Source: Octopus vulgaris (Eukaryota). Taken from it: a DNA stretch of 64,000 bases. Made by a program: the position numbers and the translations under genes. The stretch covers positions 70,432,001 through 70,496,000 of the forward strand of contig OX597815.1 of assembly GCA_951406725.2 (NCBI GenBank), in the 5' to 3' direction. This document shows, one piece after another, positions 9,145 through 35,514 of the stretch (positions within the stretch are counted from its first letter, which is position 1; the number at the start of each line of letters is the position of its first letter). The notes under the pieces are model-generated. The model was not told the origin of the DNA and searched no databases. It saw only the letters and a program-made list of their open reading frames with translations.

Positions 9145-10063
9145 TTTGAAGAAAACAGCATAGCATGGTATGTAAAAAAATGCTACAGAATCGCTATTAT
9201 TGGAATTAAGAAGGTCAGGCTTGTGTAGGATGGAAGATTGCAAAGATAAAGCACTGTACGATGATTTGAGAATGAATGAAACTGAAAATAGGTGAATAAA
9301 GAAAAGAATGCATGGACAATTTCATAGGGGTGTTGAAGATAAGACAGACAGAGAAAAAAGATGACTGTAGATGACTAAGAGTGATTTAAAACCAGAAACG
9401 AAGGCTCTGATCTGTGTTGCCGAAGAGCAAGCATTAAGAACGAATTACATCAAATATAGATAACACATCAGAAAGTGATTAGTGTAGAATTTGTGGACAA
9501 AATGGTGAAACTGAATGACATATTACCAGTCAATGTACGCCACTAGCCCAGAAAGAATATAATAGACGTAATGACAATATAGCAGGGATTGTCTATTGGA
9601 CACTTTGCAACAAGTATGAACTTGACAGAGCAAAAAAGTGGTACGAAGATAAAATCAAAGGCATCATCGAAAATGATAATGCAAAGATCCTATGGGATTT
9701 TATGATTCAGTGCGACCATGAGATAGAGAACAGGAAACCAGACATAGTGGTAATTGAAAAAGAAAGCAAACTATGCTGGATCATAGTTATAGCATGCCCA
9801 GCTGACAACAAGGTATGCGATAAGGAAGAAAGGAAAGTCGATAGATATAACAAGTTGGCTTGGGAGGTTAAGCAGTTGTGGTCGCTGAAAAAGGTGGTAA
9901 CAGTACCAATAATTATCGGAGCCCTGGAAACAGTGAGTAAAGGTCTTGAGAAAATCTCGACATGGAATAAATAGGGGCTGCAATAAGAGTGGAGCACTTG
10001 CAGAAAAGCACTGCTTGGATCCGCTCGAATACTCCGGATTGTGCTCGAATAATAATAATAATA
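9145..10063 (+). mobile_element. R4/Dong-clade non-LTR retrotransposon, 3' part (copy 1)
   Basis: MHGQF, KPETKALICVAEEQALRTNYIK, decayed CCHC knuckle, ILWDFMIQCDHEIENRKPDIVVI (PD-(D/E)xK restriction-like endonuclease), VPIIIGAL. Ends in (AAT)5. Confidence 0.85.
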
Positions 10064-10640
10064 GATCCATTGGAATCTCTGTGGAAATCACAACCTACAA
10101 AGAGCAAAGGCGTTGTTTGAGTAAACCCCAGACGGAGTCACCGAGAATGAAAATTGCAAAGTCCTGTGGGATACAATGATTCAGTGCGATCACCTGATCA
10201 AACATCGGAATCCAGACATCGTTGTGATGAATAAAAAAGAAAGAACATGCATGATAATCGACATAGCATGTCCCGGTGACAACAGGATCAAAGAGAAAGA
10301 AGAAAAAATGAAGATTTATAACGATTTGAAGCGGGAAATACGAAGGTTGTGGTCAATGAGGAGAGTAGACGTGGTACCAATAGTAATTGGCGCACTTGGA
10401 AGAATCAGGACTCAACTACCAATATGGCTCAAAAAGATTGGTATATATGTGAAGGTAGAACACCTACAGAAATCAGCATTGCTTGAAACTGCAAGAATTC
10501 TTCGCAAGGTTCTTGAAGCATGACCAATAAAACAAGTGTCATCTTAGTCTGCTGGCTGTGACAGCTGATACTTTCCTTTATACCCAGTAATATAATTTGT
10601 GAGTTTTAATACAACAACAACAACAACAATAATAATAATA
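10064..10640 (+). mobile_element. R4/Dong-clade 3' end (copy 2)
   Basis: ORF 10176-10523: IQCDHLIKHRNPDIVVM...IDIACP...VPIVIGALG...LQKSALLETARILRKVLEA, then 3'UTR and (AAC)/(AAT) tail. Confidence 0.85.
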
Positions 10641-11129: not shown

Positions 11130-11945
11130 ACACAGAATGAAGCCGCTTGGCACAGATTGACCTTGAACTCTGCAGTGCATGCACACCACGTTTTAACGTT
11201 CTAGCTCACTTCCGCTGTTTACAGCAGTACTTGGAAGGAAAGTGTGTAGCGTGTGATCGTCGCATTGACCATCACAGAGAAAGTTGTCATGGCGATACTT
11301 GCTCAGAGGCCTGCACAAAGTTTCAGAAAGTGTGAGAGGAGTGTATGTACCAAACACAAGTGTACGAGTGCTTCAGACGTTTCCAAATGTCGATATTGAC
11401 GAACGTTCTGGGAGACCCGCAAACAGAAGAACCGAGAGGAACATCGCAGCTGAGAGGAGAAATCGTCGAATCCCAATCCGTGAGTTATCAGAAGATGTGC
11501 AGATCAGTTACGGTTCAGTTCAGTCCATTATCACTGAAGATTTGGGCATGAACCGCGTTTGTGCCAAGTTTGTGTCAAAACTGCTTTCCGCTGACCGAAA
11601 AGACACTTCGGTTTCAGTTGCACAAGATCTCCTTGATTGTGTCGAGAACGATGAAAACATTCTGCAAACTTTGCGTAGGATTCTGAGCAGGTATCGCCAA
11701 GCTTTTGGCATAATTTTATGCAGATTCTCTGCTCAATTTTCTCTGTCATGGTCAATGCGACGATCATGTGCTCCACACATTTCTTCCAAGCATTACTGTA
11801 AACAGCGGAAGTGAACTAGAACGTTAAAATGTGGTGAGCATGCAGTGCAGAGTTCAAGGTCAATCTGTGCCAAGTGGTTTCACTCTGCGTGCTTAAACTT
11901 CGTTATTATGGCAACAGTCCGGATACTTATTGATCAGACTATGTA
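11130..11945. mobile_element. Mariner derivative made of two head-to-head 5' ends
   Basis: + strand transposase N-terminus (DERSGRP, IRELSEDVQISYGSVQSIITEDLGM.RVCAKFV) fused to a - strand copy (MTEKIEQRICIKLCQKLG). Arms 11130-11329 and 11661-11890. Mariner TIR plus TA at the right end. Confidence 0.8.
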
Positions 11946-12234
11946 TAGTGGACAAACGAAAGAAGGACACCCAACACATTTATTGGAAGTTACATGCATC
12001 GATCATGATTCATTGGTACTCCGAGAGTTTCATGTGTGATGCTATTCAGAGATTTTGAATTTTGTATTAAAAATGACTGAATGGCATCACGCTTTAAATT
12101 CTCAGACTACCGACGAATTTGAATCAAACTATTTTGATTCATATATATATATATATATATATATATGTAGGTCCCGGGTTGAGTCGGGGTTAACCACAGT
12201 AAATAAGGTACTCAATACATAGCAGAGTAAATTA

Positions 12235-12317
12235 ATTTATTTTATAGAAGGAGCTTCCTGATGATTTCTTTTGAATGAAACAGTTCTAGTCCTGTAGAAG
12301 CTCCTTCTATAAAATAA

Positions 12318-12319
<2 letters not shown>
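12235..12319 (+). ncRNA. Type I hammerhead ribozyme (intact core) in a (TA)n-embedded Penelope-like remnant
   Basis: Stem I 23 bp perfect (12235-12257/12297-12319), CTGATGA 12258-64, short stem II TTC-tttt-GAA, GAAA 12277-80, stem III ACAG/CTGT, GTA cleavage triplet (cut after 12296). Confidence 0.75.
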
Positions 12320-12355
<36 letters not shown>

Positions 12356-12462
12356 CATAAATGAGGGTGAACATTTAGATATTAATTTAATAATACCGTC
12401 AGTTTAACACCAAGTGGCCTAGCACATAGAAACCAGGGAGACAGTACAAATTTATACATAAA

Positions 12463-12979
12463 CTAGCAGTATCGCCCGGCGTTGCTCGAGTTTGTAAGGG
12501 AAATAACTATATAAGCATTTTTAGAGAGTTACTTCCTTTATAGATGCCAATTCGGGCTTTCTTAGCCATTTCTGTTTTGGTGTCTTCAAGCCATGAAGTC
12601 GTTGTTCTAAAAGAACGCTGGTCTCCTTGACAACGCATTACGACGTTGATTTCCTTAAACTCCCTTCCCCACAGCTTCACGAGGGAGGGAAGAAGGGGGA
12701 GAAGCAAACACAGGTGCAGGTGTTTGAGCGTGGACGCCAACTCCGCCGCCATCGACACACGAAAAATTATGCATTAAAATGGAATAAAAAATGATGTTAA
12801 ATTATTTTTAAAATCGTAGACTCATCGTAGACGTGCGCTAATAGCCAGACGGGCTCGATATTAATCACGACTATAAGATACCCGAATTTGGTTAAACTGC
12901 ACCGCAAAATGTGGGAGGAGTTAGGAATCTAAATCGTAGGAGACAGACACTCACACAACTACAGTTTTATATATATAGA
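12463..12979 (-). mobile_element. Non-autonomous Helitron
   Basis: On - strand: 5' TCTATATAT...3' hairpin (GAGCAACGCCGGG) plus CTAG, between A and T. Shares its 3' about 70 bp with the copies at 18846 and 45739 but has a different interior. Confidence 0.7.
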
Positions 12980-13109
12980 TATAAGAGAGTTAACGTTAAG
13001 TGGCTAACTCTAGTGCTAGAAATAGCTCCTTATTCTGGTATAGCCACCGAAGATTGTTTCCACAGAAGAAATAACATTACCTTCAACTGTATGTATGTAT
13101 GTATGTATG

Positions 13110-33009: not shown

Positions 33010-33959
33010 GGAGAGTTCACGAAACAAAACAAAAGACGAAGACAGGTGGTGTAGAAAACAAACAGATGTATTAGTAAAACGCTCAGGAATTGAAAAAGTC
33101 TTTTACGTTTCGAGTCTACTCTTTTCTGCAGAAAGGGACACAGAAAAAAACAAGGAGAGAAAAAAAATGTATGTAGTGGCTACCGATCTATCATGGCGAC
33201 TGCCGGACTGAAGGGTCACACAGGAGAGCGAAGAAATAGGGGAGATAACAAAGTAAAGATGACCCCCACAACGAAGGTGCGTGCGTGTATGAGAGAGTAC
33301 GTGTGCGCGTGTGAAAGAGGGCTGGTGGTCTTGACGTGTGCGTGTGTGTATGTGTAGGTGTGAAAATGTGGAGATGGGAATTGGTCAGTGCTGGTGTGTG
33401 AGTGGTGTGTTGTATGGTGTAGTGTGGTGTATGCGTAGTGTTGTATGGTGTAGTGTGGTGTTGTGTGATGTTGTTGGGAGGTGGAGGAGGTGAGAGTGGG
33501 ATGTGGGTTAGGCAGAGGGTTGGCGTGGAGTTGGGTATGTGGGTATGCAGAGGGTTAGGGTAAAGGTGGGGCTTGTGGGTAGGCAGAGGGTGGAGTAGAG
33601 GTGGGGTATGTGGGAGAGGGTGTAAGGGATGGGATGGGAAGGATAGGGAAGGTGGAGTAGGAATGTGTAGGGGTGGGCTGGGCTTATGGGGGAGTGTTGA
33701 CGATGAAGGGAAAAGGGAGGTGGGTATGTAGGAAGAGAGAAAGAGAGTAAGAGAGAAGAGAGAAGAGAAAAAGAGAGTAAGAGAGAAGAGATATGAGAGA
33801 AGAGAGAAAGAGAGTAAGAGAGAAAGAGAGTAAGAGAGAAAGAGAGAGTGAAAGAGTAAGAGAGTAAGAGAGAAAGAGAGTAGGGGTATATATATATATA
33901 TATATTATAAAAATTTATAATATAGACAGCAGTTTGCAATGTTTTACCAAAAAGGAAAA

Positions 33960-34400
33960 CTATAATCGTCACTAAATATGACTAGGGTGTTAGAAACACC
34001 CACATTGCTAGAAATAAGAGCTAAAATGCTCTAATGTTGTAATCAATGCACATAATTATATACATATATAGTGACAGGGACTGTAATCGTCCGAAAACAC
34101 CGTTCGATAATTCCCTATTCTGATCGGTCAGTTTTGGTAATTTCCTTTACCTCATCAGTCGAGCTAGTCCTTACTGATGAGGCAACGGAAATTGCCGAAA
34201 CTGACTGATCACATAAAGACGCAAGAGGAAAAACTGCAACACATAAAGGATTCTCGAACGATGTCTTCGGACGATTATAGTCCCTGTCGCATATATGTAT
34301 GCAATTATGTGCTCTACTATAGCATTAGAACATTTAAGCTCTTATTTCTATCAATGAAGGTGTTTCTAACACTCTAGTCACAATTAGTGGCAATTATATA
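33960..34400. mobile_element. Head-to-head Penelope-like terminal repeats, each with a degenerate hammerhead
   Basis: About 200-bp diverged inverted arms. CTGATGA-GGCAA..TTGCC-GAAA at 34174-34200 (+), mirror copy on - from 34158. Confidence 0.65.
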
Positions 34401-35514
34401 ATTATATATATATATATATGTAAATGCTTTCCCAACTAAAATTGCACTTCAATTTTTAATTCCGATGAACCTATAGGGTTATACACTAGAACTCAACTAT
34501 GAGTGCATTGCATCTTATAGCAGAAATACCTGTAAGCTAATGAAGATCAAGAATAACGTCTTATTCCTTTTTCATTTTAATTCCTTATATGTACATTTGT
34601 ACATAAATGCATGTATGTATGTATGTATGTATGTATGTATGTATGTATGTATGTATGTATGTATGTATGTATGTATGTGTGTGTGTGTGTGTGTGTGTGA
34701 GTATATGTATCTGTGTGTGTGTGTGTAAAATGCAATCGATAAAATGAACCAGTTAATTTTGTTATAGACTCCCTATCCTATAAACATTAACCTCTGTGTG
34801 TTTAGTGTAAAGAAATCAATATCGCACTCAATTCAATCACATCTAAATAACAAATACATCGAACGATAGATAAACAGACAAAAATACTGGCTATCATTCA
34901 AACAAAATCAATTAAGAATTCGTTTGTAATTGCGAAACACGAAGCGGATTAAACTATAAACAAAAGCGTGTACATAATGAGTTTAAATAAACATCCCTTC
35001 GGATAGAAAAAAGAAATTCGACGGCTGCCCCTAGGAAACGAGTCCACATATTCTGAAAATATTTCAGACATTCTAACATTGGAAATTTTTTCACGTCTTT
35101 CGAAGTTTCCAAGTTTTTATGACGAAAACAATGAAGAATATACACAAACAGGGAATTTATGAAAAGGCAGCCATACTCCTACACAATATCAATAGACAGA
35201 ATAACAAACAGCAGAAATTATTCTTTTCTTTTATCTTTTTAGTTTTTATGCCATTTGACTGCGGCCATGCATGAGTATCACCTTGAAGGGTTTAGACAAA
35301 CAAATCGACCTACAGCTACTGATTATAAGTCTAGTGCTTACTCTGTCGGTTTCTTTTTGCTGAACCGGTAAGTTGTTGAGTGGTTGGAGAACATGCACAG
35401 ATGTGCACGCGCGCGCGCACGCACACATTCACACACAGATATACATGTTACTCTCTCTCCCTCTAAACACGCGCGCGCACGCACACAAGCACAACACACA
35501 TACACATACACACA

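What the first reader, a model, noticed from the sequence alone, without database searches (positions are those of the whole stretch)
12235..12319. Hammerhead whose stem I is a perfect 23-bp fold-back ending exactly at the cleavage site
Seen: intact CTGATGA/GAAA core, ACAG/CTGT stem III and GTA triplet. The 5' arm is the exact reverse complement of the predicted 3' cleavage product. Stem II is weak (T-T first pair, then TTC/GAA). Inference: either an unusually long natural stem I, or an inverted insertion whose breakpoint was set by the ribozyme-generated RNA 5' end.
Basis: partly seen in the sequence, partly recalled or inferred. Interest (0 to 1): 0.72.

Follow-up and report, generated by a model that had tools for sequence, protein, structure and literature searches.

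The report
Penelope stub mimics long-stem hammerhead
The 23-base stem is not the ribozyme's own stem but a rare joint between two back-to-back copies of a jumping gene's front end; across the family, joints cluster 45 bases upstream of the predicted cut site, likely at the capped start of the element's RNA.

Summary
Window 12165-12319 is a 155-bp head-to-head insertion in (TA)n of a young Hydra-clade Penelope-like retrotransposon (5,876 exact matches to the hammerhead's 3' half). Uninverted copies have a 6-bp stem I. Every insertion joins an arm ending near +23 to one ending at +93 (from the cut site), which fixes the length 23. Breakpoints are not at the cut site: of 164 arm ends, 78 lie at -46..-39 and 1 at -2..+3. 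Position -45 lies 29 nt behind a TATA box, and arms ending there mostly carry a non-parental G (922 genome-wide): likely a capped RNA start. The window's junction is rare (29 exact sites against 673 for the commonest) and recurred in seven haplotypes. A 7-nt stem-I microhomology explains it without cleavage (about 65%; cleavage-set about 25%). A separate small class (17 of 60 short-spacer junctions) has both arms stopping at the cut site, which hints at occasional in vivo cleavage. No RNA data or assay. The scan reached the capped-start reading before on other DNA, in this and other genomes.

The parts
12138..12164 (.). Left (TA)n target microsatellite; no target-site duplication can be discerned
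   Evidence: sequence
12165..12257 (-). Long arm: inverted copy of the element from about +1..+7 to +93 (numbered from the predicted cut site)
   Evidence: matches uninverted copies L094, L072, L069, L223
12165..12234 (-). 70-nt 'tail' (+24..+93), present on one arm only; lies between the two fixed 3' ends
   Evidence: 3,813 exact matches to a 28-nt tail word; the partner arm ends at +17..+31, mode +23, in 61 of 64
12251..12257 (+). Junction microhomology GAGCTTC: G12251 is non-parental (likely cap-derived) and 12252-12257 is the natural 5' strand of stem I; the same letters read as +1..+7 on the minus strand
12252..12319 (+). Short arm: element from -45 (likely RNA start) through the hammerhead to +23
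12258..12296 (+). Type I hammerhead core, stem II (U-U plus 3 bp, 4-nt loop), stem III (4 bp, 8-nt loop centred on CTAG), GUA triplet; predicted cut after 12296
   Evidence: core and stems are the same in all nine reference copies bar two single changes
12297..12302 (+). Natural 3' strand of stem I (GAAGCT)
12320..12354 (.). AAAT plus right (TA)n target microsatellite
   Evidence: sequence

Best explanation
This is a 155-bp head-to-head stub of a Hydra-clade Penelope-like retrotransposon in (TA)n, whose 23-bp 'stem I' likely arose when two cDNAs of the element's front end were joined through the ribozyme's own 6-bp stem. Shown: the parent is a 5.4-kb RT plus GIY-YIG element; the natural stem I is 6 bp; arms have fixed 3' ends near +23 and +93; 5' ends pile up at -45; both arms nearly always share a haplotype; this junction recurred in several subfamilies. 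Inferred: transcription starts at -45 behind a TATA box, so the RNA begins with the hammerhead. The enzyme would nick both strands of a (TA)n and prime internally at +23 and +93. The cDNA from +23 would run off the capped end and gain one C, ending GAAGCTC-3'. That end is complementary to GAGCTTC at +1..+7 of the sister cDNA (or of itself, by fold-back), so annealing there and fill-in would give the window's structure without RNA cleavage.
For: Parent: L223 holds a 5,387-nt tandem unit with hammerhead, tail, ATG at +138 and RT-EN frames; L095 has a 492-aa open frame with YRDD, CxCx5C and the CxxC..E..N..CxH end; Atlas hits at 0.94-0.98 carry RVT_1/GIY-YIG/HTH_animal. Sample of the first 100 of 3,813 tail matches: 64 have an adjacent inverted arm; of 164 arm 5' ends 37 lie at -45, 78 at -46..-39, 1 at -2..+3; 0 of 100 are window-type. 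Exact genome counts: window junction 29, -45/-45 AGCT junction 673, G at -46 922, extra G on both arms 185 strand matches, about 92 insertions. G at -46 in 21 of 27 truncated arms and 0 of 44 natural copies; TATA-like box exactly 29 nt upstream in 36 of 40 natural copies (binomial p 1e-8 at 25% G). Window-type copies: 30, seven haplotypes, tail on the inverted arm in 24 and on the hammerhead arm in 6, perfect length exactly 23 in 17. Other inverted repeats also seed joints with no cut site: 13 of 42 remaining short-spacer junctions overlap by 4 nt or more (stem III, CTAG, TTCTA). Arms share four markers in 22 of 23 pairs, chance 0.20. A model of two independent RNAs, some cleaved, predicts 7-10 single-arm stops at +1 among 64; 1 was seen. 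Two internal RT start sites, nicks on both strands and uncleaved RNA as main template are shown in vitro for the anole PLE (PMC11167929, parts 1-2 of 4).
Against: No direct RNA evidence for the start site or cap. The extra C is also the base that a one-nucleotide fold-back onto +7 would add, and an RT may add C without a cap. About two thirds of the 21 G cases could take their G from the sister arm (my reading), and the commonest filler (CT/AG) fits fold-back or repair synthesis. 17 of 60 short-spacer junctions have both arms at -2..+3, so cleaved RNA probably is copied at times and could feed this class. The 24:6 asymmetry is unexplained. One of 23 arm pairs is discordant, as is 1 of the 50 sites listed. 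That L1 elements copy the cap as an extra G is recalled; four searches gave no paper confirming it.
Confidence: 0.65

Rival explanations
1. Ribozyme cleavage set the end of the long arm: the +93 cDNA ran off a self-cleaved 5'-OH end at +1 and annealed, end to end through stem I, with a +23 cDNA made from uncleaved RNA.
For: Cleaved templates probably exist: 17 of 60 short-spacer junctions have both arms at -2..+3 against 2 at -7..-3 and 7 at -12..-8, and 12 of the 17 carry 3 nt or more of filler against 5 of the other 43 (the script printed 18 and 13, I removed L310, mis-scored through a point change). 17 of 22 inspected arm hits really begin at +1. The two ends would be flush and need no trimming. 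The 24:6 bias could reflect an order of events.
Against: Single-arm stops at +1 are rare: 1 of 164 ends; 31 non-AG hits at +1, some of them point changes, against 14 at the -4 control. Arms nearly always share a source, and a cleaved RNA cannot template the hammerhead-spanning arm. Independent mixed templates are over-predicted (P(<=1) 0.0003-0.008). Cleavage did not affect insertion in the anole system (PMC11167929).
Confidence: 0.25
2. The 155-bp structure is a non-autonomous element that spreads as a fixed unit with a long stem I.
For: About 25 near-identical 155-bp copies (94-100%) were found by the first DNA search.
Against: The junction occurs in seven haplotypes, six of which also occur in ordinary copies, and both arms carry the matching marker; it occurs in two opposite configurations. 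That means repeated de novo formation, not descent from one unit. It makes up about 0.5% of matches (29 of 5,876).
Confidence: 0.05
3. The -45 hot spot is a 3' splice site (pyrimidine-rich stretch then AG at -45/-44) rather than a start site, as in Drosophila virilis Penelope, where an intron ends at the 5' end of helix I.
For: All nine reference copies have a pyrimidine-rich stretch followed by AG there; precedent in PMC4209133 (part 2).
Against: A spliced template would give a constant upstream exon; only one base (-46 G) is constant and -47 varies (G12, T8, A7, C4 of 31). The TATA box at a fixed 29 nt fits a start site.
Confidence: 0.07
4. A natural hammerhead with a 23-bp stem I.
For: The perfect pairing itself.
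Against: All uninverted copies have unrelated sequence beyond 6 bp; the 'arm' continues 70 bp as inverted element.
Confidence: 0.02

Closest known systems
Hydra clade of C-terminal EN+ Penelope-like elements, e.g. Hydra-1_Obim, Hydra-1_Amil, Penelope-1_HM (Craig et al. 2021, PMC8557442; passages, section 11 and supplement hits read)
   Same: DKT motif, CxCX5C linker, CxxC and CxH around E and N, C-terminal GIY-YIG, (TA)n target, type I hammerhead; U-U at the base of stem II in three listed Hydra hammerheads; ACAG/CTGT-A stem III as in Hydra-1_aMil.
   Different: RWR in place of RWK; unit 5.4 kb (3-kb microsatellite-rich 3' region) against generally under 3 kb; 8-nt loop III against 1-2 nt; a different family from Hydra-1_Obim (different hammerhead; compared by eye only). 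The passages that I read give no junction map or start site.
Inverted pLTR and 'tail' structures of EN+ PLEs (Arkhipova et al. 2013, PMC3846280, passages; Schostak et al. 2008, PMC2377424, abstract and passages)
   Same: Head-to-head 5'-truncated copies, palindromes at the junction, tail on one arm only, AT-rich targets, transcript starting in the upstream pLTR.
   Different: Tail of 70 nt against 30-40. Arkhipova et al. read the palindromes as self-priming on an antisense template; here the one-base G and the TATA spacing point to a sense, likely capped template. D. virilis Penelope has a TATA-less internal promoter.
Poseidon element of the green anole, PAc (Frangieh et al. 2024, PMC11167929; parts 1-2 of 4 read)
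   Same: Two internal RT start sites that define the tail, nicks on both strands of AT-rich DNA, uncleaved RNA as main template.
   Different: In PAc the ORF starts inside the hammerhead; here the ATG is at +138. The parts that I read do not treat the 5' junction of inverted stubs.
PLE minimal hammerheads (Cervera and de la Pena 2014, PMC4209133; parts 1-2 of 4 read)
   Same: Type I hammerhead in the pLTR, short helix I, palindromic loop III suited to dimers, pairs on opposite strands close together.
   Different: Here helix III is a full 4 bp and helix II is short, with U-U in place of G10.1-C11.1.

Membership tests
Type I hammerhead ribozyme | Core CUGANGA, GAA, A15.1-U16.1, NUH triplet | tested here: met
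   only N7 varies between subfamilies, one reference copy has G17
Type I hammerhead ribozyme | Three helices can form | tested here: met
   hammerhead fold -32.2 against minimum -32.5 kcal/mol, about 3% of the ensemble
Type I hammerhead ribozyme | Paired 10.1-11.1 (usually G-C) | tested here: not met
   U-U; the same is listed for Penelope-1_HM, Hydra-1_aJap and Hydra-1_cRog, so it is a clade variant
Type I hammerhead ribozyme | Compensatory changes in the helices | tested here: inconclusive
   subfamily changes fall in N7 and the loops; no compensatory pair
Type I hammerhead ribozyme | Match to an Rfam hammerhead model | tested here: not met
   no hit at gathering score or E up to 10
Type I hammerhead ribozyme | Site-specific self-cleavage | not testable with these tools
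   indirect only: 17 of 60 short-spacer junctions stop at -2..+3 on both arms
EN+ Penelope-like element | Single ORF, RT followed by GIY-YIG endonuclease | tested here: met
   L095 and L223 frames, Atlas; Pfam gave no real hit; L223 has a frameshift between RT and EN
EN+ Penelope-like element | Partial tandem (pLTR), inverted 5'-truncated copy, tail on one arm | tested here: met
Hydra clade | DKT in place of DKG | tested here: met
   SDKTKN in L223
Hydra clade | CxCX5C linker; CxxC and CxH flanking E and N | tested here: met
   L095
Hydra clade | RWK motif | tested here: inconclusive
   RWR in L223, a conservative change
Hydra clade | (TA)n insertion preference | tested here: met
Hydra clade | Placement in the Hydra clade on an RT tree | not tested
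   reference proteins were seen only in a paper's supplement
Neptune clade | CX2-5CxxC linker | tested here: not met
   the linker is CxCx5Cx5C; my first label 'Neptune' was dropped
Non-LTR retrozyme | Non-coding tandem monomers each with a hammerhead | tested here: not met
   the parent codes for RT-EN and the stubs are inverted, not tandem

The most novel reading that the evidence does not exclude
The junctions of this one family record the whole insertion pathway of a Penelope-like element in vivo: a sense, capped RNA that begins at the first base of hammerhead stem I is copied twice from two fixed internal sites, both cDNAs run off the cap, and in about half a percent of events the hammerhead has already cut, so that the ribozyme acts as a decapping switch ahead of the ORF and its stem I doubles as the glue that joins the two cDNAs.
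Probability: 0.4. Interest if true: 0.65.

Novelty: new member of a known kind. Interest (0 to 1): 0.42.

Why it matters
For the locus itself little: it is 1 of about 30 copies of a rare joint among thousands of stubs, and a warning that genomic 'long-stem' hammerheads in Penelope-rich genomes can be insertion artefacts. For the field more: how PLEs make inverted ends, which strand they copy and what the hammerhead is for are left open in the papers that I read (PMC3846280, PMC11167929, PMC8557442). The family gives exact, testable coordinates (start -45, priming +23 and +93, cut +1), favours a sense capped template over antisense self-priming, and suggests that cleaved RNA is seldom but sometimes copied.

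Tried and rejected
Rfam: no hammerhead hit; only sub-threshold microRNA hairpin models. Pfam: only weak chance hits below cut-off; PDB sequence search empty. The repeat finder was swamped by microsatellites. Ungapped arm mapping mis-scored indels and was replaced by blastn. Alignment A1 used wrong strand coordinates for three rows and was discarded. RNA: no RNA holder listed; contigs of four runs guessed to be RNA cover the region but cannot show starts or ends, so they are not used as evidence. A second hammerhead family in the window is too old and diverged to test the start-site rule. 'Neptune' was dropped for 'Hydra' on motifs. Fold-back as sole source of the extra base was considered and not excluded. 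Literature: searches listed no paper whose title or abstract start reports a capped-start or cut-site junction map for a PLE; searches found no paper on cap-derived G (that L1 fact is recalled). Subscription papers are not searched. The bioRxiv preprint 10.64898/2026.07.22.740005 was read in part 1 of 5 only and its supplements are closed; Repbase entries were not available and may already hold this family.

Full report
Observation. The hairpin is far more stable than shuffles (z -6.3). The hammerhead fold itself is within 0.3 kcal/mol of the minimum but about 3% of the ensemble. Rfam does not recognise it. In any type I hammerhead stem I begins at the cut site, so that end is uninformative. 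Below, positions count from the predicted cut (+1 = 12297, -1 = 12296).

What surrounds it. The left arm does not stop at 23 nt; it goes on for 70 more bases, and the whole 155 bp sits between two (TA)n runs. The own genome (G000, 2.8 Gb) holds 5,876 exact matches to the 28-nt 3' half of the hammerhead and 3,813 to a 28-nt word of the 70-nt extension. Many matches come as close pairs on opposite strands.

The parent. Uninverted copies have unrelated sequence upstream of AGCTTC, so the natural stem I is 6 bp in all subfamilies. L223 holds a 5,387-nt tandem unit: hammerhead, 93 nt, ATG at +138, RT and GIY-YIG frames (one frameshift), 3 kb of microsatellite-rich 3' region, next hammerhead ending at +23 in (TA)n. 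L095 has a 492-aa open frame whose nearest Atlas clusters carry RVT_1, GIY-YIG and HTH_animal. DKT, the CxCX5C linker, CxxC and CxH around E and N, and the (TA)n target match the Hydra clade as defined in PMC8557442 section 11; RWK is RWR here. Three Hydra hammerheads in that paper's File S2 also have U-U at the base of stem II, so the 'weak' stem II is a clade trait.

Where arms end. I took the first 100 of the 3,813 tail matches as a sample blind to the 5' side. 64 have an adjacent inverted arm whose 3' end lies at +17..+31 (mode +23) in 61. The 23-bp length is therefore the family's fixed short end; 17 of 30 window-type copies have exactly 23. Of 164 arm 5' ends, 37 are at -45, 78 at -46..-39, 1 at -2..+3, and 22 long arms reach -187 or beyond; none of the 100 is window-type. 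Genome-wide, the window junction has 29 exact sites against 673 for the junction in which both arms end at -45 and overlap on AGCT.

Why -45. In 36 of 40 natural copies a TATA-like box begins exactly 29 nt before the A at -45, across subfamilies that differ in between. Of 91 arms containing -45, 40 were natural, 20 were AGCT junctions and 31 other; I moved 4 of the 31 to natural on inspection. Of the remaining 27, 21 have G at -46, a base seen in 0 of 44 natural copies (p 1e-8 at 25% G). There are 922 such arms in the genome, about 92 insertions carry the G on both arms (185 strand matches), and in L264 the G abuts the (TA)n directly. Position -47 varies. The simplest reading is a capped RNA start with one base copied from or added at the cap (the L1 precedent is recalled, not confirmed by my searches). 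Against: about two thirds of the 21 G's could come from the sister arm, and the same base would be added by a one-nucleotide fold-back onto +7. A 3' splice site at -45/-44, as in D. virilis (PMC4209133), is a weaker rival because no upstream exon appears.

One source for both arms. In 22 of 23 short inverted insertions both arms share four markers, where chance is 0.20. In the 30 window-type copies both arms carry the same +16 marker wherever both are long enough (28 of 28), the copies fall in seven haplotypes, and the tail is on the inverted arm in 24 and on the hammerhead arm in 6. The junction was formed repeatedly, not inherited from one unit.

How the window's joint likely formed (inferred). 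The enzyme nicks both strands of (TA)n and primes at +23 and +93, as shown in vitro for the two internal start sites of the anole element (PMC11167929). The +23 cDNA runs through the uncleaved hammerhead and off the RNA start, ending GAAGCT plus C. That is complementary to GAGCTTC at +1..+7 of the sister cDNA: 7 nt, the longest overlap that I saw at any junction class. Annealing there, or fold-back followed by strand switch, gives the window's sequence. Shorter inverted repeats seed joints in the same way with no cut site nearby: 13 of the 42 other short-spacer junctions overlap by 4 nt or more, at stem III, CTAG or TTCTA.

Evidence that cleavage does happen at times. Among all 60 distinct short-spacer inversions (65 matches, less 4 double listings and 1 duplicate locus), 17 have both arms ending at -2..+3, against 2 at -7..-3 and 7 at -12..-8; 12 of the 17 carry filler of 3 nt or more, against 5 of the other 43 (after removing L310, which the script mis-scored). 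That is what copying a pre-cut RNA twice would leave, in roughly half a percent of insertions. Single arms stopping at +1 are only weakly enriched: 66 hits, 35 with the AG prefix of mostly window-type joints and 31 others; 17 of 22 inspected hits were real ends; the -4 control gave 14. If two RNAs were cut independently, 7-10 single-arm stops would be expected among 64 insertions and 1 was seen. A cleaved RNA cannot template the arm that spans the hammerhead, so the window's joint more likely comes from uncleaved RNA. I put microhomology at 0.65 and a cleavage-set end at 0.25. The 24:6 bias is unexplained.

Comparison and verdict. Inverted truncated copies, junction palindromes, one-sided tails, (TA)n targets and pLTR hammerheads are all described for PLEs (PMC8557442, PMC3846280, PMC4209133; passages or parts read as listed under Closest known systems). 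The locus is a new member of a known kind. The capped-start reading and the small cut-site class were not in the passages that I read or in search listings 8, 41-43, 55 and 80. I noted the capped-start idea, before any look-up; earlier AI notes of this scan reach the same reading on other DNA, which is not independent support. Nothing here is tested on RNA or at the bench.

Noticed in passing
window 33905-34420: A second, older head-to-head insertion in (TA)n with two diverged hammerheads (cores at 34174 + and 34158 -) of another family; the junction again lies within 20 nt upstream of the cores. 703 first-look candidates in the genome.
   Followed up: partly
L223 (G000:C1:68810000-68819900): Full-length 5,387-nt tandem unit of the parent; a subfamily with loop III change TT to TA improves the predicted helix-III dimer from -12.8 to -15.2 kcal/mol.
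   Followed up: partly
L005/L006 (G000:C17:54186373-54186748): Two identical window-type stubs 221 bp apart, separated by (TA)n; local duplication or assembly effect.
   Followed up: no
L295, L319 (both arms at +1); L225, L301: Stubs made only of the predicted 3' cleavage product on both arms, joined by short AT-rich filler: best candidates for copies of self-cleaved RNA.
   Followed up: partly
L075:~9500, L209:~5640, L201/L202: Arms ending at -45 or -20 are joined to unrelated sequence instead of a sister arm, in L201/L202 inside an 8-kb tandem duplication with gag-like frames (label from recall).
   Followed up: no
window 11269-11815: Decayed mariner-like transposase fragments on both strands (label from recall).
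   Followed up: no
window 9519-10523: Two similar non-LTR retrotransposon C-terminal fragments with a PD-like endonuclease motif in tandem (label from recall).
   Followed up: no
window 12462-12990: A repeat beginning ACTAGCAG that resembles non-autonomous Helitron-type elements (recalled, untested); a similar start interrupts a tail in L094.
   Followed up: no
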